Below, piece after piece: positions 1-63,605 of a stretch of DNA of 64,000 nt. Made by a program: the position numbers and the translations under genes. The notes under the pieces were generated by a model. The model was not told the DNA's origin and ran no database searches. It saw nothing but the letters and a program-made list of their open reading frames with translations. Within the stretch, counting starts at the first letter, position 1, and every line of letters begins with the position of its first letter. The stretch is from Protoeuglena noctilucae (Eukaryota), in NCBI GenBank assembly GCA_958009085.1, contig OY253670.1, positions 496,001 through 560,000 of the forward strand, written 5' to 3'.

Positions 1-1516
1 ACCGGGTTGGTCGCACCGGGCGAGCGGGCGGGGAGGGGCTGGCTGTGACGCTGGCGTGTCCGGAGGACGAGGGCATTATTCAGGACATACACGAGGCGTT
101 GGGGTGAGCGATGGGGGAGGAGGGGACGTAGGTGGGGGTTTGTTGGTGACGGTGAGGATGAGTTGTGCGGGTGCTGGGGTGTATGAGCGGTGATCATGGC
201 GGACACTACCTCACGCAGTGGTGCCAGTCGCCAGCCCTCGTTGCCCTCGGGCGACGCCGAGAGGGACATGGATGACGAGAAGGGTGGCGATGACATGGGT
301 GTCAGTGATAGGGGCGATGGTGGGGCAGAGAGGGCGGAGGGGCAGAGGCTGCGGCGGGGCGGCTTGCGGCCCTTCCGGAAGCTCAAAAAGGACATTGTGG
401 AGGGATTGAGGTACCGCGCGGAGGACGTGGCGCGGGGCCTGACCAAGAACGTGCTGCGGGAGGCCAGGGTCAGGCGAGAACGTGCTGCGTGGTGCGCGCT
501 GTGCCGTTCGACCAATACGGATCGCAGTAGCCCCGACTCAGGCAATCTTATCCCGAATTTTCAAATCGTGCTGCGCGCAGGGACGTGCGCATCGAGCTGC
601 TCAACTCGGAGCGCCTCCAGTCGCATTTCGACGCCAACCCTCGCGATCGTGAGGTGCTGAGGCACGACAAACCCCTTGCCAAGGGCCCGGGGGCGGCCAA
701 GGCCACGCGGGGCATACCCTCCTACATCCGCCAAAAACCCATGACGCAGGGGGTGAGCTGGGGTGGGGAGGTGGGGGTGACAGAGTGGCTGGGAGCGCTG
801 CTTTGGGAGGCGGGGGTTTGCTCTTAGTTCTTTCTAAGCCCGCGGCTGGCCCGACAACTAAGTGATCGTATCACTCAGTCGATCGGTTAGATAGTACGGT
901 AGTGCGATGTGCAGCCGAGTCGGTCTCACCTGTCGTGCGGAGCGATTCCCGCAGTGCGATGCGGGGAGCGGGGGGGGTGGCAAGGCCGGGGGCCGTGTGG
1001 GGGGCAAGAGGAAGAGGTCGGGAGACGACCCGTTGAAGGCGGGGTTCCTGAAGGTGAGAGTGGGAGTAGATAGGCACTAGGAGATATCTACTCCTGGCAT
1101 CTAGGAGTAGATGCCACTAGTAGGCAGGTCTAGGAGTAGGCAGGTCAGCCTACTCCTAGTACCTGACCTGGTACTAGGAGTCAGGTCAGAACCGGGGTCT
1201 AGGAGTAGGCAGGTCTAGGAGTAGGCATCTAGGAGTAGATATGCAAGTGGCCCAGCATGTCGTATCCTCACGCCACCTCCGCTCCTCGGTTGCGATCTGC
1301 GAGCTCCTCTTTGCTGTGTGCCATGGCACGCCACACGTGCACATTGCCGCGCCGTGTGTCATTGCACGCCACGCATGCATGTTGCCACCGCGTTGCCACG
1401 GCCACCCGCGCTCTCAGGTGGCTCCGAGGGACGAGGGGATGACGCTGATGGAGGCCAGGGCAGCCAAGGTGGCGAGGAAGGAGGAGAAGAAACGGAGAAA
1501 GGCAGGGCGGCGATAG
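1..1516 (+). CDS. DDX56: DEAD-box RNA helicase DDX56/DBP9, 3' part (multi-exon, 5' end outside window)
   Basis: Motif VI (H)RVGRTGRAG at the window start; LRYRAEDVARGLTKNVLREAR; RIELLNSERLQSHFDANPRD..LRHDKPL; DDPLK. Exons include ..473, 581-752, 955-1053 and 1418-1516 (TAG). Intron 474-580 is GC-AG. Confidence 0.9.
1063..1240. repeat. Cluster of direct and inverted CTAGGAGTAG repeats in a DDX56 intron
   Basis: CTAGGAGTAG at 1101, 1130, 1199, 1215 and 1229; reverse complement at 1150-1159. Perfect 12-bp inverted pairs at 1130-1141/1148-1159 and 1152-1163/1170-1181. Confidence 0.85.
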
Positions 1517-2714
1517 CTGCGTGGCTAGGCGCTGATATCAGCGGGTGGCTAAGCGTGGGGGGTGCGAGTGCGGGGCATGGGTCGGGTTTCACACGGGTGC
1601 GAGTACGATCATAGCTTCAAAGAAAAGCTGCCAAAGCTGCCTCCTATTGCTATGAGCTTCACACAAGCGCTGCAGCGAGCAGCTAGGCGCGCGTTGGGAC
1701 CTGGCAAGGAGAGCAAAGTATCCTACAATGCGCTTCATAACAAGGCGAATTACGTCATCTTGAGGACAGAGATAGGCCCAGGGAGGCTGCAAAAGCAAGA
1801 GACGAGGACAAGAGTCAGCGGCTGGCATTGTGTGCATGGTGTGATTATTGGAACCGACGGGGGGTGGTGCTGGCAACTGCACGAGGGTTGTGTGGCACGA
1901 CCAAAGCGTCCGGCTTGGCTGTGTGCTCTGCCCGAACGGGCGGCATGGTGGCTGAGGCTTGGGAGGACCACGATCGTACGAGCCCCGATGGGCTCCGTGG
2001 CGAAGGGCCTCGCGAAACCGGGACGCTGGCAGGGACTGGCGCCCGCAAAACGTCAGACGGGGCGCCAGAGGCCTGGGCCATGCAGGCTAGCTATTGGGAG
2101 CGGAAACTGAGGATCAACGAGAAAGGAGGGGTGACGCATTTCTGTGTTGAGCGTCCGGGTAGAGAGGAAACGGGTAGCGATGCCCGCGATTGGCGACGCG
2201 GGCGGTGCTGCGAGCAGGCCGACTGTGCGGGGGTGCGTGAGGGGTTGGGCGCCCGCCAACACGGGCGCTCCGAACCCTGACACCTCCGCGGCCCACTAAA
2301 GGTGAGAAAAGGGGTCCCGCTTGCAACACGATGATGATGTCGCGAAAAGGCCTTGGCAAAGGCGCAGTGGTGGCGGGCACACGGCATGTGCATGTGGCGT
2401 GCTTGCAGGAACACGAGACAGGGCCTGGGGTATGCAAGCGCACGGGGTGTGCCAATGGCATGCGCGCGGGAGTGTGCGAGGCCACGGGTGGGTGTGCGCA
2501 CACGGGTGAAGGCAGGTGGGTGTGCACGAGTGCATGGCTGGGCTCTGAGACAGTGCAGGGGCCATGCGGGGCAGCGTGGGCCATCTGGCTGCGGCCGGCG
2601 CGGCGTGGAAAGAGAGAAGACCGCGACCGCGCTCGTCATGCGGTGGTGGGAGCCGGGTTGCGACAATCGCGTGCGTCGCACACCACCCGAGCGCGCAATG
2701 GCCGTCAGTGCGCC

Positions 2715-5267
2715 TCATGGCCGGTGCGGGGCCTGCAGATCATCGAACCAATCGGCGGACCCCGGCACGAGGATGCGTGGTGTCCCGGCAGATGTGGGGG
2801 CGTGGGGTCCCGCGGTGCCCGGGGGCGGGCACGAGGTGGGGGCGAGGCCAGAGCCGAGGACGGTGCCGGAGAGCGCCGGAAGCTGCGCGACCAGGGCCGT
2901 GGGGTCCATTGGCGAGCTCGCATGGGGCGCATAGGCTCCGAGGCGCGTGGCAGGTGGGGGCGCTGGGACGGCGGTGTCGCTCGGGGCGGCCCTGCGTGCG
3001 CAAAGAGCGTTTTGGGGTGGTGGGAGGTGGCTATGGCCAGCTGCGGGGTGGCTACAAGGCGCGCCTGCCCTGCGTGGGGCCGGCTGGGCTAGCAAACGCG
3101 TCAAGTCGAGCGCAACATCGCACAACCACGACCGTCACTAGCGCTACCATTGGGCGTTCACGGCAGCAGGCGCGCGGACGCCGCCGCTTACCCTCCCACT
3201 CCCGCCCCCACTCCCACGCGCAGCGCTTGCAGGCCAGCGACCAGGGCGTCGTCCGTTGCCTGCGACGGCGGGGCGGGGATGGGGTGGTTGTGAGCGTTTG
3301 ACGGCGCTCCCGAGCCGATCCCTGGTTGTTTGTTGTCGAGGACAATTCACTAGAGATACTATGTCACGTAAGGACAGGAGACCAACGAGCATTGGTCTGC
3401 CCTGGCTGCGTGATATTCGTAACATGGCGTGCGTGACCGTGTCTCACCGCAGCGCGCGCTGCCTCGAGCATCCCGTGCGTCACCGCGTGCCATGCGCCAG
3501 AGTTGACGGCGGAGAGTGCCAGGGCAGGGACGTTGGTGACAGGCACAGGAGTGTGTAAAGCGGCGGGGACAGACAGCGATGGGTGCGTCCCTTGGGCCAG
3601 CGACTGCGGGGATGAGGGAGCACGCCGTGAGCTGAAGCGATGCCTGCGTCACGTATTTGGCATGTAATTGCACGGTATAGCAACAAGGTGCTCCTGTCGA
3701 GTGGCTGAGCACCCTGGCGTCCGCGCGTGGCTGACGCTGTGCTAGCACTGATAAGCAGCTTGCAGGCAGCTGCCACTCGCCTGCATCACCAGCATCTGCT
3801 GCGCCAGGTCGAGTCCTCCCTGGGGCGCCACGCCCGGGAAGTAGGCCGGGAATGCGACGTAGGGCTGCAGGGACCCTGGGATGCCTCCCGGCAGTGCGGG
3901 TACCGCCGTCAGTCCGCCCATGCCGACCAGGGTGCGTGGTCCGACCATCCCGGGCACCACCGCCGGGTGCAAGGGCGGCACAGGTACCCCTAGCGGTATG
4001 CTGAAGCCGCTGGGGGAGTGCGGAGCAGACCAGGGGAGGCGCGGGCGGCGGGCGGGCTGCGGGGCAGGGCGACGGAGTGGTAGGTGTGTGCGCGATGCAC
4101 GTGGTGCGGGCAGGCAACACGCACATACAGCTTCGCAGGGCAGCGGCATACAACTCGGTCTGGTCGCCTGCAGCCGCTGCTTGCAGCCCTGTGCAACGCA
4201 GCGCATTGTATGATGCCCATACGGCGGCAGGTGACATGGCGAGCATGCGACCGGCAGGCACGCGGCTTCAGCGCTCGCCTTGGGGGGCTTGGGCTGGTGT
4301 CGGTTGCGCGCAAAGCGCACGAGGAGAGGCTCGGCGCACCCGGGCGGCATGCTGCCATGGAGTGCGTCGCGTGCTGCTGTTGCGTCCGGCACAGACCCCA
4401 TTTGCACCATGGCGGTGGTGACCGAGGCCCCGCCGCCCGGGGGTGTGAGGATGCGCAGGTGCCGGACGGAGCCATAGGTCTGGAACAGGTCAGTGAGCTG
4501 CTTGTCGGACCATGAGGAGGGCACGCCCTTGACGTAGAGATTGTCGTTGGGTCCCGCGTCCGAGCCAGCGCCGTGCCGGTCCGCCTGGCGACCCCCGACA
4601 GGGTCGCATGCCGCCGCACGCACGCTCAGCTTCTTGCCGCTCACGACGCGGCCGTCCAGGACCCTCAGAGCCTCCGCGGCAGCCTGCGGCGAGGAGGGTG
4701 CCGGGTGCAGGTGAACGCTTGGGGAGTGCACAGATGGGTTTGGCTCATCTACATCGCACCATCGTCCACGCATACCACAACACGCCACATCACACCACAC
4801 CCCACCGCACACGCACCTCTGGGCTGTCCATGTTGACGAAGCCGTACCCCCGAGAGCGCCCTGTCCGCAGCTCCCTGGCAATCAGCGTGCTCCTGACTGT
4901 CCCGAAAGCCCCGAAGAGCTCTTGCAAAGTGGCTTCTGTCCATTGCGGCGGAATGGACCCCACGAACAGGTTGGCTTTGGCGGCAGAATCGTCGGGCATC
5001 TCGTCCAGGGTAGCCGCGGGGGCGGGTGGTCCTGCGGCCAGGGGGCAGGTTGAAGCGATGCGTGCCCGAATTCGGGAGCGTGATGCACGATACGCTGGGA
5101 GAGCAAAGAGAGAGCGGGTAGGCGACGCGGGCAGGGCTGGGCTCGCCTGATGGCCCTGGTTCTGGCCGTGGAGGAAGCACGTTCTGTCCCGGCGCTTCTC
5201 GGGCCTCTGCAGGCTCGCCGCCCAGCGCCCTCATCTGTCCGCCTTCACTCCCGCCCAACGCTGACAT
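2715..5267 (-). CDS. RNA-binding protein with two RRM domains (ELAV/Hu-like) and a low-complexity C-terminus
   Basis: RRM1 has NLFVGSIP...RSRGYGFVNM (4817-5031); RRM2 has NLYVKGVPSSW...TAMVQM...PLLVRFA. ATG at 5267 with a phase-compatible GC-AG intron at 5146-5032. The 3' exons down to 2715 are modelled on splice phase only and are less certain. Confidence 0.8.
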
Positions 5268-6425
5268 GTCATCGCTGCGGGCGCGCGCGATGGGCGGCGT
5301 GAATGCGGGTTGGTCCGAGCCCTCGGAAAGGGATCGAAGCGCGGAGCAACGATGACGTGCGTGCACGACATTGAAAATTAAAGCTCCTGCAGCTGCGAAG
5401 GGCGGCCGGGAGCACAGGGCGGGGCCGCACGCTGCCCCGCGCCCCTGGACCGCCACTGCCCCATTCGCGCCCTCCCGAGCGAAGCAAAGGAGCGCCCTCC
5501 GTGCAATCATCCACAATGTAGCCAGCCGCATCAGAAATCTCGGCGATGGCGCCGCTCCTGCGAGCCGCCAGCCAAAACCAGCGCCAGCGGAGCGGGCGGG
5601 GACGGAGCGGGCGGCCGGCGGTCGCTGATGGGATCATATCAACATTTTAAGCAACGCGACCTTGTCTCGGGGGCAGGGGTGTACATGATGCTATGTATGA
5701 TGCCATGCGCGCGGCCAGCCAGGGGAAAGCGAGGCCGTGAGTGTGACGCGCGTCACGTGAAGTATGGCCCACACATTCGCGGAAACAGGGGCCAGAGGAG
5801 CTGTCGGAAAAGACCCTCGCCTTCTCTGGTCCCCATCGCCCGGCAGGCGATCCGCCATCGCCCAGCGCACGGGCCCCGCGCAAAGCTCGGCTCACAGAAG
5901 GACCCCGCCGCGCTTCAAGCGATCCCAGAGTTGTGCTGACTGCCCGAAAAGGTGTCCAGCTGTCTTGGCGGTATTCGCCCGTTGGCCGCCAACAGCTCGC
6001 GCACAATGGCTCACTGGGCGTGAGGTTGGACCCCAATGGCCAGCTGTCGGTTTTTTGCCGGGACAGATAAAAGTTTTGAGGACGAACGTCCGACCTGCTC
6101 TGGGGGCGTATTGAGCTGTCTGATGTTTGCGAGCAAAAGTTGCGGCAGTGGGGTCGGCAGGCGGCCGAAAAGGCGGCCTGGTTGCGTCGACCTGCGCTGG
6201 TCAGAACAGGGTGCTCGGGAGGCGTTTCAAGCCCAGCAGCATTCGCGCTCCCCGCGTCTGGGCATCCCGCTCAATCGACGCTCCCCAAAACCGCAGAGCA
6301 GCAAGCCCTCTCGCCGTCCTCCCGTCTCGGTGGAGACGGCATCAACGCATTTGTTCGAGCCTGCGGCAGCCCCGCGACCTCCCATTGCGCCGCTGTCGTG
6401 GGAGTGAACGTCACACCATCTTAGG

Positions 6426-9400
6426 ATGTCAAACATCCTCAGCCCGAGGTGAGATAGGGCAGGGATGCGAGGCGGGGGGCCACGGCCATCGAGGAGTGTC
6501 CTGGACGTCACGGTTCTCCCAGCTGAAAAGGATTCATGCCCCGGCGAGGGGTCCGCGCGACGGGTGGTCACGGTTCATTCGCGGTTGCCTGATGATTCGG
6601 CAGGGGAAAGCCCTGGGTCGCCGCGCGATCCGCAGCATGCGACAGGGCTGGGTCCGTGGGGCCCTGCTGCTCCCGCAGCGCGCGAGAACCGCCCGGGCCA
6701 TCCGCGGTTGTTGCGAGAGAAATTTTCGTCCCTGTCGTGGGCGCCGTGACGCCAGTCCTGCCCCCGTGCGCGCAGGCACGTGTTTGGGCTCAAGGGGGAT
6801 GTCACGAGCAACGTTTTCCACCTGGACGACAACACAATCATTTACCCCGCGGGCAACTTCATCGTGGTGTACAGCATCGACTCCAAGACGCAGAGCCTCA
6901 TTCCGTGCTCCCCGGTGAGCGCCCCATTCAAGAAGCCCTGTCCGCGCGCCCTGGCCTGTCCATGTCATTGAGAAGCTTCCTCGCGACGCTCTTTGTATCG
7001 TCGAGGACCCTCCGGACCCGTCCCCGCCCCGCCCGGTCCGCAGGACTCGATCGGCATCACGGCGATGGCGCTGTCGCGCAGCCGCAAGTTCCTCGCCGTG
7101 GCGGAGCAGTCGGACAAGGCGATGATTTCGATTATCGAGCTCCAGGGTCACGCCAACAAGCGCCGCAGCAAGCCCCTCGTCACGTCCGAAGCGCAGTCGT
7201 CGCGCTATGTGTCGCTCGCATGGTCGCCCAACGACGACTGGTTGGTCGCGCAGGGCGCCGAGCCGGAGTGGAAGCTCGTGCTGTGGCGATCCCCGGCCCT
7301 CCAGAGGTCCCAGGCGAGGGCGCGCGAGGCGGAGGGCCGTGCGTAACGTAGCGGCACATGCGCGACCGCACACCGACATGCGGCCGGCCGATGTCACACC
7401 CTTTTTACCCCCCTCGCCCGGCCCCCCAGGTCATGTTTTCTGACAAGGTGCTGAGCAACAACCAGGGCGAGGCCTACCAGTGCCTGTTCCACCCCGTGAA
7501 CGGGGAGACTGTGACGGTAATCGGTGCGTCGGTCAACAGGGTGCTGCGCCTGGCCGACGAGCGCGAGGGGCTGCTCAAGCCCGCCAGCTACGGCATGGGC
7601 AAGGCCGCGGAGTCTCAGGCCAAGTCCCTCACCTGCCACTGCTGGCTGATCGACGGCGACATGAGCCGCATGCTGCTGGGGACGGAGCTGGGCGAGGTGT
7701 ACGTGCTGGACTACGACCGCAACTGGGAGCCCATCCGCGTGCTCAACTGCCCCGAGGGCGTGGGCGCCACGAGCATCGCGGCCTACAACAACGGGAAGGC
7801 GTTTGCGGTGGGCGGGACGCAGGGCACGGTGGCGTTCTTCGCGGCGCAGGATAACGAGAAGGAGCCGTATCGCATGGTGCGATCGGTGCAGATCAAGGGG
7901 GAGACCGGGTCGGTGCGGGCCATCAGCGTGTCGCCTTCGGAAGAGTCGCTCGTGCTGTCCACCTCCACCAACCAGCTCTGGGTGCTCGAGTTCAGCAACG
8001 CCGAGCTGGCTTCTAAAGCTGACGAGGCTCCCTCGAAGCTTTTAGTTGCTGCCTTCCACAGCGGGGAGGTCACGGGGCTGGACACGTGCGTGCGCAAGCC
8101 CCTCCTCGTTTCGTGCTCTGGCACCCCCGAGGACTCTTCCATCAAGATGTGGAACTATTTAGAGAGGACCTGCGAGCTGTCCGTGCGGTTCGAGGAACAG
8201 CCCCTGTGCGTGTCCCTCCACCCCACGGGATACGTGCTGCTGGCCGGGTTCACAGGTGAAGGGGTATGCTGAGCTGGGGTGGGCTGGGGTGATGATTGAG
8301 TGATTGTGCGAGGATGTTGACCGCGCAGTCTTGCATTTCCTCTTCCATCACTACTACCCACTGCTGCCCATCTTCCTCACCCCACCCGCACCCATTGCCC
8401 CACCCATCCCACTGCCCCTGCCCCTCCCTGTTCCCCAGACAAGCTCCGTTTAATGACGGTGCTGATGGACGATTTGAAGCCGGTGCGGGAGTACCCCGTG
8501 AAGGGATGCCGCGAGTGCCGCTTCTCCACGGGCGGCCAGTTCTTCGCAGCGACCGACCCGACCAACCACACGGTCAAGGTGTGGGCTACGTTCTCGGGAG
8601 AGCAGGTGGCCGAGCTGAGTCGCCACGCGAATAAGGTCTGGAGTATTCAGTGGAACGCGGAGGACACGAAGCTGGTCACGTGCTCGAGCGACGGGATCGT
8701 GATTGAGTGGGACATGCGGGGGTATCGCCCGTTGCGCCTGCACCAGACGCGCGGCATCTACTACACCTCGGCGGTGTTTGGGCTCGACGCCAAGACGCTC
8801 ATGGCCGCGGGGGGGGACAAGGGGATTAAGGAGCTGGGTGAGCGGCGGGGCAGGGCGGGTGGGGTTGCGAGGGGGGTGCTGGGGTGCGAGTGATGGTGTG
8901 GGTGGTGAGCAAGCAGGGATCAGGGCAGGGAGCAGGGGAGGGACGGAGGGGTGGAAATCGTGTGACCGTGTCACCCTAGTCATGCAACTTGCTTACCCTC
9001 ACCCTCACCCACCCACGCCATCATCCTCACCCACCCGTCTCATCCACCCCAAGACCCTTAACCCCTCACCCTCACCCCCAGGCGAGGACGGCGACGTCCT
9101 CCGCCACGCTTTCCAGGAGGAGGAGTTCTCTCAGATCGTCCTGGCAGATTCTGGCAAGATGGTGTTTGGTGCCACCGAGTCAGGCATCGTGAAGGCGCTC
9201 AAGCTGCCGCTCACGGGGGAGGTCGTTGCGCCGCCCATCAAGGCCCACGCCATCGTGGCGGGGAGCCAGAACTACTGGTGAGGCACATAGTCATGTAGCT
9301 GACTGTGTCAGTAATGCGGTGATGGGTCGGTGATGGCTCGTGAGAAGGGTCTGCTGTGGCGGGTAGCCAGAACTACTGGTGAGGCGAATACAGACATATA

Positions 9401-12400
9401 TAACAGGGACTAACACACTGCCGGTGGTTGTTGATGACGAACAGTTGATTGAGTGCCGGTGAGCGCCATGACAACCCACGTCTCACCCCTGCACCCCACC
9501 CCTCCCGCCCCTCACCTCCCACCCCACCCACCCCACCCCACCCCACCCCATCCCACCCCACCCCACCCCACGCCCCCCGCAGCGTCTCCCGGATGATCCT
9601 GGGCGACTCCGGGTCCCTCTGCGTCACGGCGGGCCACGACGGCAGCCTGGTGGTCTTTTCGGTGAACCGAGACCGTGACGCGAATGCCGACAAGGGCGGG
9701 GAGCGCGGCAGGGAGGCCATGCCCCTGGCGGAGGAGGTGTTGGTGACGAAGGTGGATTTGGAGGAGAAGAGGCGGAACATGCTGGAATTGGAGCAGCGCG
9801 TGTCGGACAACCAGTCCAAGTACGAGTGGGAAATGACGCTGGTGAGATGGGGGCAGGAGAGGGGGTGGTGAGATGGTTGACGAACCAATGATATTGGTCT
9901 GTTGATGCGGGTGAGATGAACGAGGGATGGTAGTGCTATCGTTTAACACACTTCGTATGCCATACCCATCCTCTATCCACAACTGCAGAACAAGATGCAG
10001 GAGGAGATCCACAAGCTGACTGTCACACAATATTAACTATAATATATATAACTATATATATTCCCCACTCTCCCTCCCCAGTTGGAGAACAAGATGCAGG
10101 AGGAGATCCACAAGCTGACGTCGAAGTTCACGGACGAGCTGGAGAAGGACCGCCGCAACTACGCCAAGCTGTCGAGCGAGAAGGGGGAGATGGAGACCAT
10201 GTACGACGACAAGATACGCGCCGCGGAGCAGCAGCAGAGGACGGAGCTGCAGACGCTCGAGGCGCAGTACCAGGCGAGGGATGGGAGATGGAGATGCAAT
10301 GAGTGGATGTAACGTGTATTAGTGGTCTGGTAGTAACCAGTGCAGCAGCAGAGGACGGAGCTGTAGTGCTTAGAAGTAGGGCGAGTGGATCCTTCATCAC
10401 CCACCGTCACCCACGCCGCTCCCTCGTCACTCCCTCATTTCTCACTGTCACTTGCGCCCCTCTCATCCTGCCCACCCACCTTATCAATCTCCCTCCCTCG
10501 CCTCCAGGAGAAGATCCAGCTGGAGGCGCAGCGGTACCAGGAGCTGGTGCAGGAGATGGAGCGGATGAAGGAGCAGTACGAAGAGAGCGACACCTTCCTG
10601 CACGATAGCCACCAGCGAAAGATGGAGGAGCTGGCCGAGGAGTACAACAAGCAGCTCAGGCGAGAGAGGGAGAGATATCAATGATATGGAGAGCGGAAGA
10701 GGGCGACGCGCCGCGCCGGGGGAGGCCGCGGGGGCGAGGGGCGGGTGCTGGCAAGCCCGAGTCGCGCGTCCGGGACGCCAGAGCGCGTCCCTCGCGCGCC
10801 GTATCGATGATTTGATGTTTAACGCGTGTATTTCGCGTATATTCTTTCCGCAGAGAGGAGCAGGAGCGCAGCGACCGCCTGGAGCAGCAGAAGCAGGAGA
10901 TGGCCCGGGAATACGAGGAGATGCGGCAGCTGATGGAGGAGGACGCGGATCGCGAGATCGAGGACCTCACGCACTACTACAAGGTGGCTCTGGCGCGGGA
11001 GCGGGAGGACGCAGCGGGGCTTTCGGTCAAGAACACGAGCATGAACCAGACCCGGGAGGAGCTGGAGCAGAAGATCGGTGAGAGGACGTATGAATTGAGA
11101 TGTATCGATGCTTGCAGGTTAAGGTTCGGGCGCTGCGCTATGTGTACTGTATAGGCCTTACAGCGTGCCGCAATCGTGCGCAGCGTGACCCATCTGCGCT
11201 GTGTTGATTGCTTGGTTGTCACTTGCTTGTCTTCCGTTGCACCCGCAGACAAGCTGAAGCAGCAGATCCGGAGCCTGTTTAGCGAGGAGAAGCAGCAGTA
11301 CAACCAGATCCAGGCACACGAGAAGGACAAGGAGACGCTGAGGAAGGAGATGAGGGAGAGGGAGGAGACCATCGCGGAGGTGAGGGGATGTGGGTGAATG
11401 TGAGGGTGAGGGTGTAGTAGTGGGGGTGGCAGTAAGGGTGGCAGTGGGGGTGGGGGTAGCGGTGGCAGTGAGGTCACACTCCACCATAACACCTCAACCG
11501 TTGCCACTCGCTCGTCACCTTCCTGTTGTTACTCGGTCACACCAGCACTCGCTCATCCCTCACCCTCACTGTCCCCATCCCTCACCCTCACCCTCACCCT
11601 CACTCTCACCGTCCCCATCCCTCACCGTCCCACCCCTCCCTCACATCTCCCCAGAAGGAGAAGCGCATCTACGATTTGAAGAAGAAGAATCAGGAGCTTG
11701 AGAAGTTCAAATGGATGCTCGACTACAAGATCAAGGACCTGCGAACGATGATTGAGCCGCGCGAGGCGGAGATCGGGGCCATGAAGGAGCAAGTGAAGGA
11801 AATGGACCTGGAGCTGGAGGTGGGGGGATTTGAACGTGATGAGAGTGTTAGTGAGATGATGGGGTTTGAGTGACATGAGGGGCCATGAAGGAGCAGGTCA
11901 AGGAGATGGATGGACTGCCTTTGCATATCCCCTGGCCCCTGACCCCCCTGCCCCTTCCCCCCTCCCCCGCAGCGTTACCAGAAGCAGAACGCCAGCCTGG
12001 AGCTGACCATCTCCGAGCTTAAGCTGAGGATGCAGGCGCTGCAGGGGGAGCAACAGGCACAGGTGCGCGGGATGCCATGCCATGGATGCTGTCACTGTGC
12101 ATGCCGCCACAGCACTCCTGCGGCCAATCTGCTACTGCAACTCAAACTATTGATACGCACTGCGCATCACGCGCCGCGATCGCACGACTGCCGCAAATTT
12201 GCTTAGTGCTTCCACGGCACATATGCTGCCATTGCGCCCAATCCTCTCTGACATGTCGCCTCTCCCATACAACCCCCCCACGGTCTCTGACTTTTCACCT
12301 CCCCCCCTCCCCCCCCCCCCCCCCAGGGCACGCGGCTGGACGCAACCGGCCAGGTCATCCGTCGCTTCCAGCGCGACCTCTTCAACGCAGTACAAGCACT

Positions 12401-14243: not shown

Positions 14244-14310
14244 CCCACGACCCACCGTGGGGTGAGATAGCACACGCACCCCATGTCGCAGCCACCGCAG
14301 CCAGCCGCCG

Positions 14311-16337
14311 TCACGACCCAGCGCCCTCGATCCCCGCATGCATGAACCGCTTGCAGAAGGCGCGCCCCTCCTTGCCCCCCAGCACATGCACCGCCAGCAC
14401 CTCGCCCGTCCGCGCCTTCGCCACCTCATCCGCCACACCCTGCAACTGCTCCCCGCACTTCGGCCCAAACACCTCGACGGCCGCGACGGCGCCGCCCTTG
14501 CCGCGCAGCGCGGGCACCAGGTCCTGCCAGTCACTTTCCATACATGCGACGTGGTTGGTACGTATGACGCTCAGCCGGTCCGCCACGCACCGCCGCGCCA
14601 CCTCCATCGCCGCCTGGCTGCACGTGGGCCCGGTAAAGACAGCGACGGCTGCGTCTCCGTATGCCGCACCCAGCGGTGGGCGCTCGCCCCAGGTCCTGAT
14701 GAGGCTGTCCGGGAGGGCGGGGGACGTGACGGGCAGAGAGGCGTCCTCTGCGCAAGGCGGCAGGGGCGGAGTGGGGTCAGACCATGAGTTGACGGGTGTT
14801 GAGTTGAGTCTAGAACGTGTTCATTCACTCATTCGCTTCTCCCTGCCCCCAACACCCCTCTCTCTGCCCCTCAGCTGCTCACCCTGCCCGTCGCCCCCCT
14901 CACCCTCTCTCTCTGCCCCCCACCACCCCTCGCACCCACTCACCCCCTCACCCTGCCCCCCACACCCACCCCCCCCACCACCCCTCACCCCCCTCACCCG
15001 CCATCTCCGGCCCGTGCAGCAGCTCCTCCCCCGTCACGAATGGCGACATGAACTCCCACGAATCGGGATTCTCATCAGCGGTGAAGTCGAACACCAGCGA
15101 CCAGAAGTTACGCAATGGGTCGAGACCCGCGCTTTTCAGATGGTCGGCCATCCCTGGATATTCGGCGTCCAGGCACCCGAAACGGACGCTCGAGCAGGAT
15201 TCGATCGCGGGCTGCGTGGAGTGAGAGGGAAGGGTCTTTGTTGGGTCCCAGGTGGCGTGGGGCAGGTGGTATGGCATGGGTGGCAGGCAGGGGTACGCAG
15301 CTATGCAAGGCCGGGTGAACACCATTACATTTGCACACCCGCATCGGCCCTTATCTCCACCCACCCTCGTTACACACACGCGCGCATACACATACACATT
15401 CACCCACCCATCCCGCCCCTCGCCTTGCTCCTGCACAGTAGCATGCCATCCACATCCGTGCAGTCCCGTAGCCGGAACTGGTGGCACGCGCATACGATGG
15501 CGCATCGGTCGCAGTCCCGCACGAACACGCTGCCGGACGCGGGGCCTAAGAAGATGCGGCAGTTGCGGCAGTCGTCGATTTGGGCGCTGTCAATGCCGTC
15601 CATCACCAACACCGTGCAGTCCGTGCAGTTCTGCGAAAGACGAGTTCTTAACATGGATAATATAAACAAAGACATCTATCAAACGACATTCGATAACAGT
15701 TATCGAAAGTCGTTTCACGCAAGCCCTCACCTGCACCACGAACTGCTGCCCGGCAATCTGCCCCGCGGTCCTCAGCACCGTTTTCCCGGTGAGGCCCGAG
15801 ACGACGAAGTTGCCGACGTCCGCGGCCCGCCCCTTGCTGCGAAGGAGCGCGGCTGTGAGCTGTCGCGCTGGCTTCGATATTTGTTGCAAAGGGCCAGGCA
15901 CGTGGAGTGGCACCCACCTTGCCCTAGGGCTGCCCACGGCGCCTCCCGGAGGCGAGCCCCGACCATCCCCTGAATTTGTCTCGGCTCCTAAGTCAAGGAA
16001 TTTGCCATCCTTCACGTCGGCATCCTTCCGTCGGCCCCACAGGCCCTGCGAAGATGGACGCGACTTGAGCTCGCCGTCTCGACACCAGCAGGCATCCGCT
16101 GCCCCGCGCGAGTGATCGATTATTCTATCCTCCGACTTGCGCAACTGCTCGGAAGCGGATATGATTTCGTGTCCCCCGCGCACGCTCGTCACCTGCTCGG
16201 ATGCCTTGCCGACAACCGTTTCCCCTCTCGGCTGCCCCTGCGAGCCGGAAAAACGCTGCGATTGGACCAATATAGGTTGAAGTCTCGTATTGCCACACGT
16301 GCCTTCGCAAGCTCACCTTGCTGAGCCAGCAACCCAT
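14311..16337 (-). CDS. RP2: RP2/XRP2-like protein (TBCC domain, ARL3 GAP)
   Basis: First exon MGCWLSK (16337-16317) carries the myristoylation/palmitoylation motif. Also GQIAGQQFVVQ; IDDCRNCRIFLGPASGSVFVRDC..ACHQFRLRDC; PAIES...FWSLVFDFT. Intron 15423-15212 is GC-AG. Confidence 0.9.
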
Positions 16338-56485: not shown

Positions 56486-56759
56486 CTCGTCTTCTTTTCG
56501 TTATGAGCAAGACAGGAAGCTGATTGTGACTGCGCGAGCGGGGCGGCCAGGCATCAGGTCCAGAAATGCTTCTGACTGCCTTGCATGCCAGAGACGAGAC
56601 AACCCCCGTCGCGGCCCCTCCCATCCGTGCCATGCCATTTCTTCATACACACACTGCTGCTCATTCAGCCAGCCGCAACGTCATCCAGCTACAGTGGCGC
56701 AAGCGGTCCATCAACCAGCCATCAACTACCAGCCCACGCTCTCGTTCCCCTGCTCGGGC

Positions 56760-57815: not shown

Positions 57816-60800
57816 CTACATGATGGCCTGCAGGTCGGCGTCCTGCCTCGCCAGCTCCAGGAGCATGGGGTCGTCGAAGAACTTGCTGACGCTCACGTCC
57901 TCCGCCATGCCCTTGCGCCTCCGGGTCTTCACCATGAACTCCCGCGCCAGGGCGTTGACGGGGGCGGGCTCCAGGGGCCGCAGCACCACCGTGCGGTCCA
58001 GGGGGTCCCCGGGCACCACCGCCCAGTGATCAAACACCGTCTGGCAGAAGGCCATGCCCTGCGTGGACGAAGAAGGATGAGCCGCTTTAATTTGCAATCA
58101 AACGCGCCAGCAAGAGCCACGACTGCCAGTCACGCAGCCTGGATCCCGGTCGAACTCTCGACTTTCAGTGGTGCATGCAGCACCGTGTGCGCACGTTTGG
58201 GGTTGGCCCCGTATGACATGGCGCCTCACCTGCGTGTGGTATCGCAGGTCCGTCTCGAAGCCAAAGTGCTCCATGGCCGGCAGGTAGGCCTTGACGATGA
58301 AGATGGGCGTGCCTGGCTTGGGGCGCTCCTCCACCACATGGCCCCTCCGCTGGGCGAGGATGGTGTAGATGGCGCTGCGGGGGCGTGGAGCGGGTGGCCA
58401 GCTGTGAGGACGCTGCCATTTCGCTTACAAAAACACCGGCACCTCGCTTCCACGCTTCGGCAATGCGCCTCATCCTCACTGCCCCGCCCATGCTTTTGGC
58501 TCATGCCCGATCCACGCACATCCGCTGCCCTCTCTCAAGCCCTCACCTGATGCACTCGGCGGTCGTGGTGATTTCCGCGAACATGACGGGCTCCATTAGG
58601 CGCGGGGTGGCCATAAGGAAGGCGGAGTAGCACACACAGCGCGCGGTGGGGATGACCTGGCCTCCCGACCGAGCGATGGGGTCCCTGCAAGACACGAGGG
58701 GCGGCATGGTAGGCTTCTATCATAGCAAACAGGTGATCGGGAGAGCGCGGAGCTTGGGCAGACAGCTACATCTCCCCATGAGGCTGTGCCATGGCACAAG
58801 ACACGATGCCTCAGCACCCACACGTGACCGTGAGCCCAGCACTCGCATCTCCATCACATCCACCATCTCCCTCATGTGCCCATCTCCCCATCTCCCCACC
58901 TCCCCGCACGTCTACCCATTTCCCCACCCGCGCGCGCTCACCCCGCCACCTCGGCGTGCATGAGCTTGAACTTGACGTTCCGGACCGGCTCGTCGCACAG
59001 AGGTCCCTCGCGGCAGGCCCACTGGAATCCCTGCACCACGGAGTTGCGCACGGCCGACAGCGCGGCCTTGTCGACGTCGGTGGGCAGCGTGTCATCCAAC
59101 AGCACGTTCGGGCCCTGCACGTCGGGACCGAAGGCCCAGAGAGACCGTGCCGCGAGAGCGTCCCAGCCGTACTTGGATTGGAAGAAATCCGCGACACGCT
59201 TGCGGGGCCACGCAGCACTGCGGGGGGAACGAGGGCGGCGACGGTCGCTGGGTGATTGCGGCGAGTAAGGGCTGCGCGAGGAGGGTGCGTAGAGCCGGGG
59301 CTGCAGAGAGGATGCGTGCGCTTGGGGCGCATTGGGGTAACCGGGTCGGCACATGTCACCACCATCTCACCATGGGTGCGTGACACATGCAATGACACCT
59401 GCAAAGGGCCCCCTCTTTTGGCCAGCACATCAAATGACGCAAGACAGCCCCTCGCCTGACTTTGCCGGCCTCGATGTCCTCCGCCAGTCCCTTCTCGAGT
59501 GGCTCGGCGATCATCGTGATCTTGTTCTTGCGGTTTGGCGTCTCCGCAAAGCACTTGAGCGACGACGTCTCCACCACCGTCTCGCAGAACGCGACCTGGA
59601 AGAACGCGGGACGAAGGGCGGTTTCACTTTATGCGAACCGCGTCTATAGACACTGAAGCAACCCCTGCACAGCCGCAGCGACCCCGGCTCAGCCACCCCT
59701 GCTTAGCCACCACCCCCGCTCATCCACCACACCTTCTCATCCACCCCTGCTCATCCACCGCCTCTGCTCATGCACCCCCGTGCGTCATGTCACGCACCGC
59801 TCCACCTCCTTTCTCACCACAGGGTCTGCCACTTTGATCTCCACCTCCGCGTAATGCTCCCGCAAGTCCCTCATCATCGAATCCAGGTAAAGCTCCCCCG
59901 TCCCAAACACCGTGTGCTCCCCCGACTCCTCCACACGCGTGTGCAGCTGCGGGGAGGGCGCGAGGTGAGACGGCGAGTCTTACGTGGGCCATACTGCTTG
60001 GTCTATGGTCTCTGGTGACCGATATGTGCACAGTGGGGGGCAGCGTTACGATCAACCGCGCGGAAGCAAGCGACGGCGGGGCTGGGAACGCCGGGCACCA
60101 GGCGTTGGCGTCAAGCCTCTGGCATACGTCAGCCGTTGATGTTAGGTGCACTGCCATGCACGTCGGCTCACCAGCGGGTACGATTTGTTGACGCTGCGGA
60201 GGCCCTCGACGACCTTGGGAAGCTCGGGGGGGTTCAGGGGCTCTGCGTGACGCGTGGGTGGGCGGTGGTCGCATTTTCGCACTTAGAAAACTTGGGCAGT
60301 GTGAGCTACAGAGCACAGAGACACCATGTCATGCGCAGAAACATGGCCTGGCCAGATAGCGATCTGCACAATGACTGACGGCGTGACAGGAAGTGTCACT
60401 GTCCCATGCAGTCACCGCACACCACCGTCGCCACCACCACCGCACCGTCTCCGCTGCCGCTCACCGATAGCGATCTTGATGACGCTGCGAAGCATGTACT
60501 GCAGGGATCGGAACACCCGCATCTCCTCCTCGAACCCCTCCGCGACGATGGTCGCCGTCTTGGTCACCGTGTCCCCCACCCCCTCGATCAGCACAAGGTT
60601 GCCCGCCGTGGCCTTGCTGATCCCCACGCGATACCGCGCCTGCCACACCTTGATCCCGGACACCTGCGCGTGGCCGGAAAGCTCCCCTAACGCCCCCGCA
60701 CAGCGTTAATCACGATCACGCCACCTCCCGCACCCGCACCCGCGCGCCATGCGCCCCGCACTGCCCAGCACTGCCCACCTGCGCCACCGCAGAGTCTTCC

Positions 60801-63605
60801 TCGTCCTCCGGAGAGTACGACTCCCCGAGCACCCGCACCGCCTCTCCCGGCCGTAGTGCCCCGCTGATGACGCGGCCAAAGGCGTCGAAACCGGGGTCGT
60901 TCAGCCGGGGGACCATCTTGGCCACGGCCACGACCAGCGGCCCCCGGGCGTTGCACAGCGACATGTTCTGCGCCATGTCGGACTTCTGGTCACCCGTCCA
61001 CGTCCGCTGGACCTTGTGGGCTGTCCCGAGCCTCGCGCTGGGGACATGCTCCGTCAGCATGTCCACCAGTCCCGTCGAGTCGCCGAACACGGCCATGAAG
61101 GCGTCCTTGAGCAGCGGCTTGCTCGACTTGTGCAGCTGCGGCGGGCGGGCGGGCATGGCAGGCATGGCAATCGCTTGACGTCGCCACGCACGGCTGCCCC
61201 TGCATAACACGCAACCCTCCCCAGCCACCCGGCAGCGGGCGGATCCAGCGACCAGCGCGTGTCGATCTTTCCCCCAGCGCGCACACATGCCCCGGCCGCT
61301 GCCCCTCAGGTCACACCTGCGAGGGCCGCAGCGTGGCGCCAAACTCGGCCAGCACCCGCCGGATGGTGTCGATCTCCTCCCCCACGCACGCCGACACGAT
61401 CTTGTAGATGGGCTCGAGGCAGAACTCCACGAACGACCGGTTGCGCGTGCCGACGGGCTTGTTGGAAAACTTGCGGGTCGAGGGGTCGAAGTACCGGTCT
61501 CCCCAGAGCTTGCGGCCGAAGTCGACGTAGTCACGCCGGACGTGCCCGTTGCCCACGGGCTGCGGCAGGTACATCTTGGCGAAGGAGAAGACGGTGAAGG
61601 AAAAAGAGAAGAAGCCTGGAGGAGGCAGGGAGGGGTGCGAGTGGATTGAAAGGATGGGCGTCGGGCCAGGCGGGGCGAGGCTGGCGAGGTGACGATGGGG
61701 TGGGTGGATAGGAGGCTTGGGAAGACACCATTGGTGCTATTCAACAACGCCAGACATAACTCGACGGAGCCATGGTGCGTAAACCCGCCGCTGCGACACC
61801 CACAGCACACCTTCACTGCACTCCTTGATGCCCGCAGCCCTCTGCTACGCCCTCACCTGAGCTGAAGCACACGGACCCCTCAGCCGGGTCGACTCGCTTG
61901 ACGCGGGTGGACCCAGCGGCGTAGGCGCCGATGTACCCGTTGACCTCCTCGATAATGTGCCGCAGCTTGAAATACGCATCGGACGGTGGCAGCTTGAGCT
62001 CCGTCACGAGGCGGTCCAGCTTGGCGATCATCAGCACGATCGGGAGGTCCTCCTGGCAGGCCTGCCGCACAGCACGCTCCGTCCCCATCATGACCTGCGC
62101 AGGGCCGAGGTCCACTTGGTTCGTGAGATGCGAGATGCAGGCCGAGTGAGCCCAGTTACGGAATCGTACATGCAAGAGTGTACATGTTGATTGCGAACAC
62201 CCGCGCTCGCCCGCGCAGCCCCTGCTCGCCATACCCGCCACGCCCACTGCACCGCTTCGCAAATGCGCCGTTGCCGGCACAGTCGTTGCAGCCCTCACCC
62301 CCTCTGCGGCATCGACCACCAGCATGACGCCGTCCGCCAGCCGCATCGCAACCGCGACCTCGTCGTTGAAGTTGGCGTGGCCCGGGGTGTCGATCATATT
62401 GCAGAGGAACGACTTGCCCTGGCTGTCCTGCAGGCACGGGTGCGGCACAGGCACTGCACGTCAGAACATTAACTATCCAACAGGCCTGGCGAACCGTGGG
62501 ACACATGGTACGCTGAGATGGTGACACACGGATCCCAAACTCGTCAGCGCAACCATCAGCGGCACGTGGGCAGGTGCACACGGGCCCGCACCGCCCGTTT
62601 TGGGTCTCACACCTGGAGGACCAGGGACATTGGCGTCATCTTGATCGAGATGCCACGGCTGACTTCGTCGAGTCGCGTGTCGGTGTACTTCAGCATGCGA
62701 CCGTCGTCCCGGGTCTCGAATCCCGTCTGGTGCGTCTGCTGCACCACCATGTCCATCACCGCGGTCTTGCCGTGGTGCAGGTGCCCCACCACCGCCACGT
62801 TCCGCACCAGCTCTGCGCGCGGAGGCAACAGGTCCTGTCAGAGCGCGTACCGGCGGAGCGGGTGCGCTTTAAAGCGACGGAGGGGCCGGCGACTCGCCCG
62901 CGTTGCTCATGAGCCCCGTGAGGAACTCCGCCGAGTACGCCGTCTCCGGCAGCTCCTTCTCGACAATCTCGTGCTTCTTCTCCGTCACCGGCGCGATGAT
63001 CGGCTTCTCCAGCGGCTGCGCGTCCTCCTCCATCACCAGCGTCTCTGCGCACGCCGCAGCAAGGCCCGTGAGGCCGCCTGCGCCCCTCGCGGCGCACCAC
63101 CTCAACAAACAAATCATACGCGTTGCGGGGAGACCAAGACCCGCGCGGGCGCGCCTGTCTCGGGTCCGTAAACCTCCTCGGCGCTGGGGTAGTACTTCTT
63201 GTCCTCGTGGAGGACGATGTCGGTGCCTGGCTCCAGCCCCGGCCAATCCTGATCCATCATCTCGTCCTCCTGGTCGAGCTTGCCACGATCATCGACTTCG
63301 TCGCGCTCCCCATGGGCGCCGGACGGCCCCTGCGCGAAGAAGCGGCCGGCAACGAGATGCCGGCGAAGGCGCGCTCCGCACACCTCCAGCACGCGCTGAT
63401 GCAACGTTTATGTGATGCATCGCAAGTGAAGGACGACTGGAGCAGCGCATGTCAGCGAGAGCACAACCCACGCCCCTCCCCGCACAGACAGCCATCAGGC
63501 CCCGCCTCGCACCTCTCCCCCCGGCCTCCCATCCTCGCTGCTCTCCGACCCGCTGAGTTCCGGGCCAATGTAATTCCCGAACTCATCATAGAGGTCCTCG
63601 TCCAT
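57816..63605 (-). CDS. EFTUD2: U5 snRNP 116-kDa GTPase EFTUD2/SNU114, 16 exons
   Basis: [96 protein letters not shown]. Exons: 63605-63513, 63329-63155, 63044-62898, 62812-62613, 62427-62299, 62094-61857, 61615-61317, 61135-60779, 60663-60465, 60242-60172, 59946-59818, 59595-59456, 59217-58942, 58684-58547, 58374-58230, 58058-57816. Confidence 0.97.

What the first reader, a model, noticed from the sequence alone, without database searches (positions are those of the whole stretch)
474..63154. Unusually frequent GC-AG introns (about 15% of introns in the window)
Seen: restoring conserved protein motifs or reading phase requires GC 5' splice sites at 474 (DDX56), 3780 and 5146 (RRM), 7314, 10274 and 10660 (CFAP57), 15423 (RP2), 23195 (CCT6), 24550 (inside the C2H2 finger), 29756 (PDE12 ALE|IGYR), 38824 (SEC14 RFLR|ARK), 41968 (methyltransferase), 45682, 48449 (ORC1), and 59455, 62897 and 63154 (EFTUD2). 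That is 17 of roughly 110-120 introns modelled by eye, and 7 of 37 in CFAP57, CCT6 and EFTUD2. Nearly all fit AG|GCRAG. Established: GC-AG is about 1% of introns in most eukaryotes, with high values known only in a few lineages such as haptophytes and dinoflagellates. Inference: this lineage has relaxed or altered 5' splice-site recognition (U1, U6 or associated proteins), or strong GC-biased T-to-C conversion at +2.
Basis: partly seen in the sequence, partly recalled or inferred. Interest (0 to 1): 0.85.

Follow-up and report, generated by a model that had tools for sequence, protein, structure and literature searches.

The report
Frequent GC-AG introns, GC-rich green alga
About a quarter of the introns in this GC-rich marine green-algal DNA really do begin with GC instead of the usual GT, which is a known quirk of a few GC-rich algae and matters mostly because GT-only gene finders would break many of its genes.

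Summary
Spliced contigs from four marine metatranscriptome runs, laid on window 1-20000, show 15 joints. Each fits only one standard boundary: 10 GT-AG and 5 GC-AG.

Spliced protein alignments that treated GT and GC donors alike added 35 junctions in EFTUD2, SEC14, CFAP57 and CCT6. Evidence-based tally: 12 GC-AG of 50 (24%, 95% CI 14-37%). A self-trained ab initio parse settles at about 21% (25 of 120) from priors of 1%, 25% or 60%.

Of the 17 claimed donors:
- 3 are RNA-confirmed.
- 9 are homology-supported (23195 narrowly).
- 3 rest on the model alone.
- 2 are unverified.

These are ordinary U2-type GC-AG introns with compensation. The full AG|GYRAG context occurs in 12 of 14 GC donors against 8 of 38 GT donors. 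Within that context, C at +2 is about as common (11 of 19) as intron composition predicts.

High GC-AG shares are already published for GC-rich algae: Micromonas pusilla 22%, Aureococcus, Chlorella and Emiliania huxleyi. This is a new member of a known kind. Altered U1/U6 could not be tested.

The parts
3604..3780 (-). GC-AG intron in the two-RRM protein gene (claimed donor 3780), cag|GCGAGT...CGCAG
   Evidence: Skipped in contigs of all 4 RNA runs. It is the only canonical placement. The spliced ORF of 520 aa stays open across it.
4057..4278 (-).
   Evidence: Skipped in contigs of all 4 RNA runs.
5032..5146 (-). GC-AG intron in the RRM gene (claimed donor 5146), cag|GCGAGC
   Evidence: RNA joint 5030/5146 has 4 nt of ambiguity. 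Only shift +1 gives canonical ends, and those are GC-AG.
5275..5820 (-).
   Evidence: Skipped in contigs of all 4 RNA runs.
15212..15423 (-). GC-AG intron in the TBCC-domain (RP2-like) gene (claimed donor 15423), aag|GCGAGG
   Evidence: Skipped in contigs of all 4 RNA runs.
7314..7429 (+). GC-AG intron in CFAP57 (claimed), cag|GCGAGG, phase 0
   Evidence: Best spliced alignment to P0006 scores 1152 against 1103 for the best GT option. It is in the ab initio model.
10274..10507 (+). GC-AG intron in CFAP57 (claimed), cag|GCGAGG
   Evidence: Best alignment to P0006 scores 364. No in-frame GT alternative was found within the search range.
10660..10853 (+). GC-AG intron in CFAP57 (claimed), cag|GCGAGA, phase 2
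   Evidence: Alignment to P0006 scores 411 against 390 for the best GT option.
23195..23409 (+). GC-AG intron in CCT6 (claimed), aag|GCAAGT
   Evidence: CCT6 PDB chains: the exon ends correspond to residues 425|426 and the acceptor lies exactly at 23409. P0158 gives 741 against 732 for a GT donor at 23189. P0160 gives 588 against 590, a tie. The competing donor ctc|GTCAAG lacks the -1 G seen in 51 of the 52 evidence-supported donors.
29607..29756 (-). GC-AG intron in PDE12-like gene (claimed), gag|GCAAGC
   Evidence: The flanking exons align to 2',5'-phosphodiesterase 12 chain 4zkf_A, ending at residue 180 and resuming at 181. It is in the ab initio model.
38824..38938 (+). GC-AG intron in SEC14/CRAL-TRIO gene (claimed), cag|GCAAGC, phase 2
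   Evidence: Alignment to P0004 scores 183 against 155 for the best GT option.
59218..59455 (-). GC-AG intron in EFTUD2/Snu114 (claimed), cag|GCGAGG
   Evidence: Alignment to P0001 scores 642 against 618 for the best GT option. The junction reads GKV|SAAW against GDVSAAW in P0001, without a gap.
62813..62897 (-). GC-AG intron in EFTUD2 (claimed), cgg|GCGAGT
   Evidence: Alignment to P0001 scores 429 against 318 for the best GT option.
63045..63154 (-). GC-AG intron in EFTUD2 (claimed), cag|GCGCGC, the weakest GC donor
   Evidence: The flanking exons align to Snu114 chains with exact spacing: 8xi2_C 84/87 and 3jcr_B 76/79, with two residues supplied by the exon end and the split codon. It is in the ab initio model.
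474..580 (+). Candidate GC-AG intron in the C-terminal tail of a DEAD-box helicase gene (claimed), cag|GCGAGA
   Evidence: Ab initio model only. Forbidding GC donors costs this gene 5.6 log-odds units. No RNA joint was displayed and there is no informative homology.
24550..24669 (+). Candidate GC-AG intron splitting a C2H2-type finger (claimed), cag|GCAAGT
   Evidence: Ab initio model only, in a low-scoring gene (score 20). The exon ends join to ...CDICKVEYATQ|GELALHLQGPAH. Read-through hits a stop within 4 codons.
48281..48449 (-). Candidate GC-AG intron in ORC1/Cdc6-like gene (claimed), cag|GCGAGA
   Evidence: Ab initio model only. PDB searches with the two flanking exons were uninformative.
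41887..41968 (-). Unverified candidate GC-AG intron in front of the methyltransferase ORF (claimed donor 41968), cag|GCGAGC...TTGCAG
   Evidence: The methyltransferase ORF has no ATG upstream of the domain. A Met-initiated exon in another frame ends in phase 0 at this donor and joins in frame at 41887. It is not in the ab initio best model.
45682..45683 (+). Claimed GC donor in a low-complexity Gly/Arg-rich gene; unsupported
   Evidence: The motif gag|GCAAGT is present, but the site is not in the best model. No homology or RNA evidence is available.

Best explanation
These are ordinary major-spliceosome (U2-type) GC-AG introns of a GC-rich, intron-rich marine green alga, present at about 20-25% of all introns.

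Shown:
- They are removed from RNA.
- They end in AG.
- Nearly all GC donors carry the full AG|GC(G/A)AG context. That context supplies extra base pairs to the canonical U1 5' end and so offsets the mismatch at +2.

Inferred:
- In a 65% G+C genome, T-to-C change at +2 is frequent.
- Where the rest of the donor is optimal, C at +2 is tolerated, so such donors drift to the compositional equilibrium.
- Donors with weaker context must keep T.
- No change in U1 or U6 is required.
For: RNA: 5 of 15 displayed joints are GC-AG, and no alternative GT placement fits. The RRM transcript keeps a 520-aa ORF across four of them.

Homology: 7 further GC-AG among 35 junctions scored without regard to donor type. 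Total 12 of 50.

Compensation:
- AG at -2/-1 in 13 of 14 GC donors against 19 of 38 GT donors (p = 0.008).
- Full AG|GYRAG in 12 of 14 against 8 of 38 (p = 4e-5).
- Mean matches to the U1-complementary consensus at 7 other positions: 4.93 (14 GC donors) against 3.78 (32 GT donors, before the CCT6 junctions were added) (p = 6e-5).

Context dependence: in the full context GC is 11 of 19 (58%), close to the intron-interior C/(C+T) of 0.56. In other contexts it is 1 of 31 (3%).

Strand asymmetry: AGGCRAG occurs 25 times on the sense strand of gene spans (16 at donors, 2 in 26.9 kb of exon) against 8 times on the antisense strand. This resembles AGGTRAG, at 28 against 7.

Ab initio parse: it converges on 21% from priors of 0.01, 0.25 and 0.6.

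Composition: the window is 60-68% G+C.

Literature: the same link to G+C was reported for M. pusilla, Aureococcus and Chlorella, with a canonical U1 5' end (PMC3033335).
Against: - In the merged models, which include ab initio calls, the GC share in full-context donors is lower: 16 of 38, or 42%. 'Neutral at +2' may therefore be overstated.
- A simple mutation-selection estimate, using the selection strength implied by 1% GC-AG elsewhere, predicts only 1.3-1.9% here from composition alone. Composition cannot be the whole story.
- Iwata & Gotoh note that Micromonas RCC299 (64% G+C) has only 2.7%.
- U1, U6 and splicing proteins of this organism were not seen.
- Only 15 of 30 RNA joints were displayed, and only 20 kb could be laid.
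- 23195 is a near tie with one of two homologs.
Confidence: 0.62

Rival explanations
1. Lineage-specific relaxation or alteration of 5' splice-site recognition lowers the cost of C at +2. Candidates are the U1 snRNA or its modifications, U1-C, U6, or Prp8-side proofreading. Composition only fills the space that this opens.
For: - Composition alone predicts 1-2% under the selection strength implied by other genomes.
- Full-context donors look unconstrained at +2, with GC in 11 of 19.
- Iwata & Gotoh call the excess in two algae an enigma. They suggest base modifications or U1 snRNP proteins, because close relatives with similar G+C differ tenfold.
Against: - GC donors are confined to the best U1-complementary context: 1 of 31 in other contexts. 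That is what an unchanged U1 would give.
- The U1 5' end was canonical in the species examined in PMC3033335.
- Nothing about this organism's snRNAs or proteins could be examined: no genome and no Rfam hit in the window.
Confidence: 0.28
2. By-eye artefact. GCRAG motifs abound by chance in GC-rich DNA, and the true donors are nearby GT sites or the introns are retained.
For: - GC dinucleotides are far commoner than GT in this DNA.
- Two claimed sites (41968, 45682) could not be supported.
- Some ab initio GC calls in weak context are probably false: 9 of 81.
Against: - Five GC-AG joints are seen directly in RNA contigs of up to four runs, and no GT placement fits.
- Nine claimed sites have homology support.
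- Forbidding GC donors lowers the score of 14 of 20 gene models. It shortens CFAP57 from 1181 to 937 aa and EFTUD2 from 993 to 883 aa.
Confidence: 0.03
3. The GC-AG introns are copies of a mobile introner-like element that carries a GC donor, as has been discussed for Micromonas pusilla.
For: Intron lengths are fairly uniform, with a median of 170 nt. M. pusilla, the closest published case, has introner elements; this is recalled, not read here.
Against: All-against-all BLASTN of 124 introns found no shared family. The only matches are simple CCCTCA-type repeats in three introns.
Confidence: 0.03
4. The GC donors are minor-spliceosome (U12-type) introns.
For: None beyond the non-GT start.
Against: All 14 supported GC donors read GC(G/A)(A/C)G, not the U12 donor box. 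That consensus is recalled; ATATCC is quoted in PMC3033335. Their acceptors, CGCAG or YCCAG behind a pyrimidine-rich tract, are the same as those of GT introns.
Confidence: 0.01

Closest known systems
GC-AG excess in GC-rich algae: Micromonas pusilla 22.2%, Aureococcus anophagefferens 39.6% (14-17% in a 2024 re-annotation), Chlorella sp. 7.7% (Iwata & Gotoh 2011, PMC3033335, passages read; bioRxiv 10.1101/2024.10.30.620910, passages read)
   Same: - Genomic G+C is about 65%.
- The GC-AG share is in the tens of percent and the acceptor stays AG.
- Green-algal affinity: the best named CCT6 hits are chlorophytes at 79-81% identity, and a SEC14 hit is from a pedinophyte.
   Different: - This genome is intron-rich: 122 modelled introns in 20 genes. 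The pelagophytes have under one intron per gene.
- No introner-like families were found among the introns.
- The strict dependence on the AG|GYRAG context is measured here.
Emiliania huxleyi, where GC is the majority donor (56-65% of junctions; Feldmesser et al. 2014, PMC4028052, passages read)
   Same: - A 65% G+C marine alga with GC-AG verified by RNA.
- GT-biased gene finders mispredict junctions.
   Different: - The share here is a minority (about 20-25%).
- The organism is a green alga rather than a haptophyte.
- No sign of the GA donors reported there: 0 of 15 RNA joints.
Ordinary U2-type GC-AG introns of animals and plants, about 1% of introns, with a stronger donor consensus (1.3% over 61 species in PMC3033335; Thanaraj & Clark 2001 seen only as a reference title, its content recalled)
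   Same: - Same intron ends.
- Same compensation by extra consensus matches at -2, -1 and +3 to +5.
- No difference in length between GC and GT introns.
   Different: The frequency is about twenty times higher.

Membership tests
U2-type GC-AG introns | Intron starts with GC and ends with AG | tested here: met
   This holds for 5 RNA-defined and 9 homology-defined introns.
U2-type GC-AG introns | The segment is absent from mature RNA | tested here: met
   Met for 5 introns in contigs of RNA runs X1-X4. The other 9 rest on protein continuity only.
U2-type GC-AG introns | Donor otherwise close to the U1-complementary consensus (compensation) | tested here: met
   AG|GYRAG occurs in 12 of 14 GC donors against 8 of 38 GT donors, p = 4e-5.
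U2-type GC-AG introns | No U12-type donor or branch boxes | tested here: met
   The donors read GCRAG or GCGCG. The acceptors are identical in type to those of GT introns. The U12 consensus is taken from recall and from PMC3033335.
U2-type GC-AG introns | Removal by the major spliceosome through U1 and U6 pairing | not testable with these tools
   No snRNA gene lies in the window and no genome is held.
GC-AG excess of GC-rich algal genomes | Genomic G+C around 64% or more | tested here: met
   4-kb bins range from 0.603 to 0.675. This covers the window only.
GC-AG excess of GC-rich algal genomes | GC-AG share far above the 1-3% norm | tested here: met
   12 of 50 evidence-supported junctions, CI 14-37%. 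25 of 122 in the merged models. This covers the window only, not the whole genome.
GC-AG excess of GC-rich algal genomes | Canonical U1 5' end despite the excess | not testable with these tools
   No U1 gene in the window, no genome.
Introner-element introns (Micromonas pusilla type) | Introns form families of near-identical copies | tested here: not met
   All-against-all BLASTN of 124 introns gave only simple-repeat matches.

The most novel reading that the evidence does not exclude
In this alga the spliceosome has effectively stopped discriminating T from C at donor position +2 whenever the other positions pair fully. The GC share in AG|GYRAG donors then equals the neutral base composition. 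This tolerance would reflect a lineage-specific change in 5' splice-site proofreading (U1 snRNP proteins, snRNA modification or U6/Prp8), not composition alone. An intron-rich green alga with such a property would give a tractable system for the 'enigma' that Iwata & Gotoh raised in 2011.
Probability: 0.25. Interest if true: 0.6.

Novelty: new member of a known kind. Interest (0 to 1): 0.35.

Why it matters
Practical. Any GT-only or GT-biased gene finder will mis-model this genome. With GC donors forbidden, 14 of 20 gene models lose score, CFAP57 loses 244 residues and EFTUD2 loses 110. The same problem was documented for E. huxleyi.

Biological. The window gives a clean quantitative picture. 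C at +2 is common, at roughly compositional frequency, in donors with a full complementary context. It is almost absent in weaker donors. This fits the view that donor strength is a summed pairing budget.

It also offers an intron-rich green alga in which to ask why some GC-rich genomes reach tens of percent GC-AG while close relatives of similar G+C do not.

Tried and rejected
- no genome is held for this window. No genome-wide tally or snRNA search was possible.
- earlier scan notes hold nothing on this genome or on look-alikes. The word search returned only notes on Ostreococcus GT-AG introns, which were not used.
- the 'longer' protein search with an EFTUD2 exon gave one hit (P0001) at my strict cut-off.
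- I used stop-free exon references afterwards.
- Claimed sites 474, 7314, 10274 and 10660 could therefore not be read from RNA. Parts without displayed cover are not counted as evidence either way. A joint from 436 to 12453 with two extra letters, seen in three runs, rests on about 20-nt matches and I treat it as a foreign transcript.
- the whole-window single-chain parse threaded all genes into one and was discarded. Strand regions were then set from Pfam hits, RNA contigs and a coding-potential track.
- **Ab initio parse errors:** the parse mis-modelled the weakly biased RRM gene, missing 5 of its 7 RNA-supported introns. It also missed 2 other RNA-supported introns. Its counts are approximate.
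- PDB searches with the two ORC1 exons were uninformative.
- an alignment of P0001 with exon fragments was not usable as a query.
- the metagenome scan found only distant EFTUD2 relatives (49-67% identity). Orthologous GT/GC switches in close relatives could not be examined.
- no Rfam family in the window.
- The listing of cluster members could not be made because the database is switched off. The names of P0001, P0003 and P0006-P0009 are unknown.
- introner hypothesis rejected.
- full-text searches for 'GC-AG' with 'green alga' or 'Chlamydomonas' returned no paper, among the titles and abstracts listed, that reports a high GC-AG share in an intron-rich green alga. I read none of those papers.

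Full report
**What the window is.** The 64-kb window is 60-68% G+C throughout and is packed with intron-rich protein genes. Pfam hits on open frames place the following:
- a DEAD-box helicase tail;
- a WD40/coiled-coil CFAP57-like gene (6.4-13.2 kb, + strand);
- a TBCC-domain gene;
- an INSIG-like gene;
- a 2OG-Fe(II) oxygenase;
- CCT6;
- an ankyrin/F-box gene;
- a CRAL-TRIO (SEC14) gene;
- a methyltransferase;
- an ORC1/Cdc6-like gene;
- a TPH-domain gene;
- a ketoacyl synthase;
- EFTUD2/Snu114.

The best named relatives of a CCT6 exon are chlorophyte green algae at 79-81% identity, followed by land plants. The only named SEC14 relative is from a pedinophyte. Two N-termini look like simple green-type transit peptides (my reading). 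The source is therefore most likely a marine green alga. No genome is held for it. I did not try to identify the record.

**RNA evidence.** A run search with window 54001-64000 found four marine metatranscriptome runs (X1-X4) that hold 23-45% of the sampled words, as expected if they hold only the exons. Their contigs were laid on window 1-20000, the one call allowed, and gave 30 joints, of which 15 were displayed. The listed pieces match the window with no differing letters.

For each displayed joint I tried every placement within the stated ambiguity. Exactly one gives standard ends. The result is ten GT-AG and five GC-AG. The GC-AG introns are 3604-3780, 4057-4278, 5032-5146 and 5275-5820 in a two-RRM protein gene, and 15212-15423 in the TBCC gene. 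Joining the RNA-defined exons of the RRM gene gives a 520-residue ORF with two RRM-like segments that stays open across all seven junctions. Two (4278, 5820) are not.

**Homology evidence.** For genes with good relatives I scored every in-frame GT or GC donor and AG acceptor pair near each exon boundary. The score was the alignment of the joined translation to the relative, with no weight for donor type or motif.
- **EFTUD2 against P0001:** 13 junctions, 2 GC (62897, 59455).
- **SEC14 against P0004 and P0003:** 4 junctions, 1 GC (38824).
- **CFAP57 against P0006:** 12 junctions, 3 GC (7314, 10274, 10660). The one junction also seen in RNA (12063-12326) came out identically, which checks the method.
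- **CCT6 against P0160 and P0158:** 7 junctions, 1 GC (23195). Junction 21791 is a tie, which I resolved as GT by site quality. For 23195, P0158 favours GC by 741 to 732 over a GT donor 6 nt upstream, while P0160 gives 588 to 590.

PDB chain numbering supports the GC version of 23195. Separately, PDB alignments show exact residue continuity across 29756 in PDE12 and across 63154 in EFTUD2. These two were checked because they were claimed, so I keep them out of the rate.

**Rate.** Counting every junction covered by a piece of evidence, whatever its type, gives 50 distinct junctions, of which 12 are GC-AG. That is 24%, with a Wilson 95% interval of 14-37%. The chance of 12 or more is 8.5e-14 at a true rate of 1% and 2.2e-08 at 3%.

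By gene the counts are: RRM 4 of 7, CFAP57 3 of 12, TBCC 1 of 1, INSIG-like 0 of 1, 2OG oxygenase 0 of 5, CCT6 1 of 7, SEC14 1 of 4, EFTUD2 2 of 13.

It uses codon log-odds, donor and acceptor matrices, and a prior on the GC share that is re-estimated at each round. It was run on strand regions set. It converges on 25-26 GC among 120-123 introns (about 21%), whether started at 1%, 25% or 60%. Even its first round at a 1% prior of 88.

Its final models contain 14 of the 17 claimed donors. They miss 7 RNA-supported introns, mostly in the weakly biased RRM gene, so its counts are approximate. With the RRM gene replaced by the RNA-defined chain, the merged models have 122 introns, 25 of them GC.

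**More than chance.** On the sense strand of gene spans AGGCRAG occurs 25 times: 16 at donors, 7 in introns, and only 2 in 26.9 kb of exon. On the antisense strand of the same spans it occurs 8 times (binomial p = 0.005). The canonical AGGTRAG behaves the same way, at 28 against 7. The donor labels partly depend on my models. The strand asymmetry does not.

Forbidding GC donors lowers the score of 14 of 20 gene models. It truncates CFAP57 from 1181 to 937 residues and EFTUD2 from 993 to 883.

**How it works.** GC donors are not sloppy sites. Among 14 supported GC donors:
- A at -2 is 93%;
- G at -1 is 100%;
- A at +4 is 93%;
- G at +5 is 100%.

Among 38 GT donors, A at -2 is 53% and A at +4 is 76%. 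The full AG|GYRAG context is present in 12 of 14 GC donors against 8 of 38 GT donors (p = 4e-5).

Matches to the U1-complementary consensus at the seven positions other than +1 and +2 average 4.93 against 3.78 (p = 6e-5, computed on 14 GC and 32 GT donors before the CCT6 junctions were added). A at +3 tends to be commoner in GC donors, 3 of 14 against 1 of 38 (p = 0.055).

Lengths, acceptors (mostly CGCAG) and pyrimidine tracts do not differ between the two classes.

Seen the other way, in the unbiased set donors with the full context are GC in 11 of 19 cases (58%). Donors with any other context are GC in 1 of 31 (3%) (Fisher p = 2e-5). Intron interiors have C 28.4% and T 22.0% on the sense strand, so C/(C+T) is 0.56. 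In optimal donors the +2 position therefore sits near compositional equilibrium. Elsewhere T is required.

In the merged models, which include less certain calls, the full-context share is lower: 16 of 38, or 42%. The true value probably lies between 40% and 60%.

This is the compensation known for GC-AG introns in general. That is recalled knowledge; the relevant paper appears only as a reference title. Here it is combined with strong GC pressure.

**Is composition enough?** A rough mutation-selection estimate takes the selection strength implied by 1% GC-AG in genomes with a neutral T/C of 1.0-1.5. Applied to the T/C of 0.77 measured here, it predicts only 1.3-1.9% GC-AG. The assumption is crude, because selection at +2 surely depends on context. 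It agrees, however, with Iwata & Gotoh's remark that G+C content correlates only weakly with the GC-AG share. It also agrees with their observation that Micromonas RCC299 (64.1% G+C) has 2.7% while M. pusilla (65.9%) has 22.2%. Some lineage-specific tolerance therefore remains possible. I could not examine snRNAs or splicing proteins of this organism.

**Other readings rejected.**
- The introns are not copies of an introner-like element. An all-against-all comparison of 124 introns found only simple CCCTCA-type repeats.
- The donors do not resemble U12-type boxes.
- Strain polymorphism, with T in the transcribed population and C in the assembly, is implausible. It would need five independent differences exactly at +2, while the listed contig pieces show no other differences.

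**What is known.** GC-AG is 1.3% of introns over 61 species. It is 39.6% in Aureococcus, 22.2% in Micromonas pusilla and 7.7% in a Chlorella, the three highest-G+C genomes of that survey. Their putative U1 5' ends are canonical (PMC3033335, passages read).

Newer pelagophyte annotations give 14-17% and attribute it to G+C content (bioRxiv 10.1101/2024.10.30.620910, passages). E. huxleyi has 56-65% GC donors, verified by RT-PCR, while GT-biased models showed only 15% (PMC4028052, passages).

The present case is a further member of a described phenomenon. I found no paper reporting it for an intron-rich green alga in the searches. Those were listings only, apart from the passages named above. 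Supplementary tables of PMC3033335 were not opened and may list other species.

**Verdict.**
- **Observation:** confirmed, and slightly understated.
- **Interpretation:** partly supported. GC pressure with compensation fits. An altered machinery is untested.
- **Novelty:** a new member of a known kind.
- **Interest:** modest. The main value is for annotation, plus a clean illustration of context-dependent tolerance at +2.

Noticed in passing
window 9965-10020 and 10064-10119 (+): A 56-nt direct repeat (86% identity) duplicates the 3' splice site and the first 38 nt of a CFAP57 exon inside the preceding intron. The peptide [13 protein letters not shown] is therefore encoded twice. This could be a pseudo-exon or an alternative acceptor.
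   Followed up: partly
window 28184-28390, 11552-11649, 14887-14999, 9492-9571, 59693-59788: Many introns hold simple repeats that read C/A-rich (CCCTCA, CACCC) on the sense strand of their gene. One example is (AGGGTG)x34 on the + strand inside a minus-strand PDE12 intron. These repeats are the only similarity found between introns.
   Followed up: partly
window 16558-19716: One RNA contig spans a + strand GT-AG intron (17152-17241, INSIG-like gene) and several minus-strand introns of the 2OG oxygenase gene. The two convergent genes therefore overlap or abut at their 3' ends.
   Followed up: no
window 1604-5858 (-): The two-RRM protein gene has 4 GC-AG among its 7 RNA-defined introns, the highest share of any gene here. 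With these numbers it is not clearly different from the rest.
   Followed up: partly
all evidence-supported donors and acceptors: G at -1 occurs in 51 of 52 donors. G rather than A at +3 occurs in 97% of GT donors (GTGAG or GTGCG). The acceptor is CGCAG in 31 of the 46 evidence-supported introns examined. The splice signals are GC-shifted and unusually uniform.
   Followed up: partly
window 39563-39691 (+): A 129-nt GT-AG intron in SEC14 is in frame and free of stops. The protein database accordingly holds a read-through ORF of the window (P0002, 237 aa) with 43 intron-encoded residues.
   Followed up: yes
window 415-436 joined to 12453-12471: Contigs of three runs join these two short stretches with two extra letters and run on unlike the window on both sides (tables 5c and 7). 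This is probably a transcript from elsewhere that shares about 20-nt matches. It remains unexplained.
   Followed up: no
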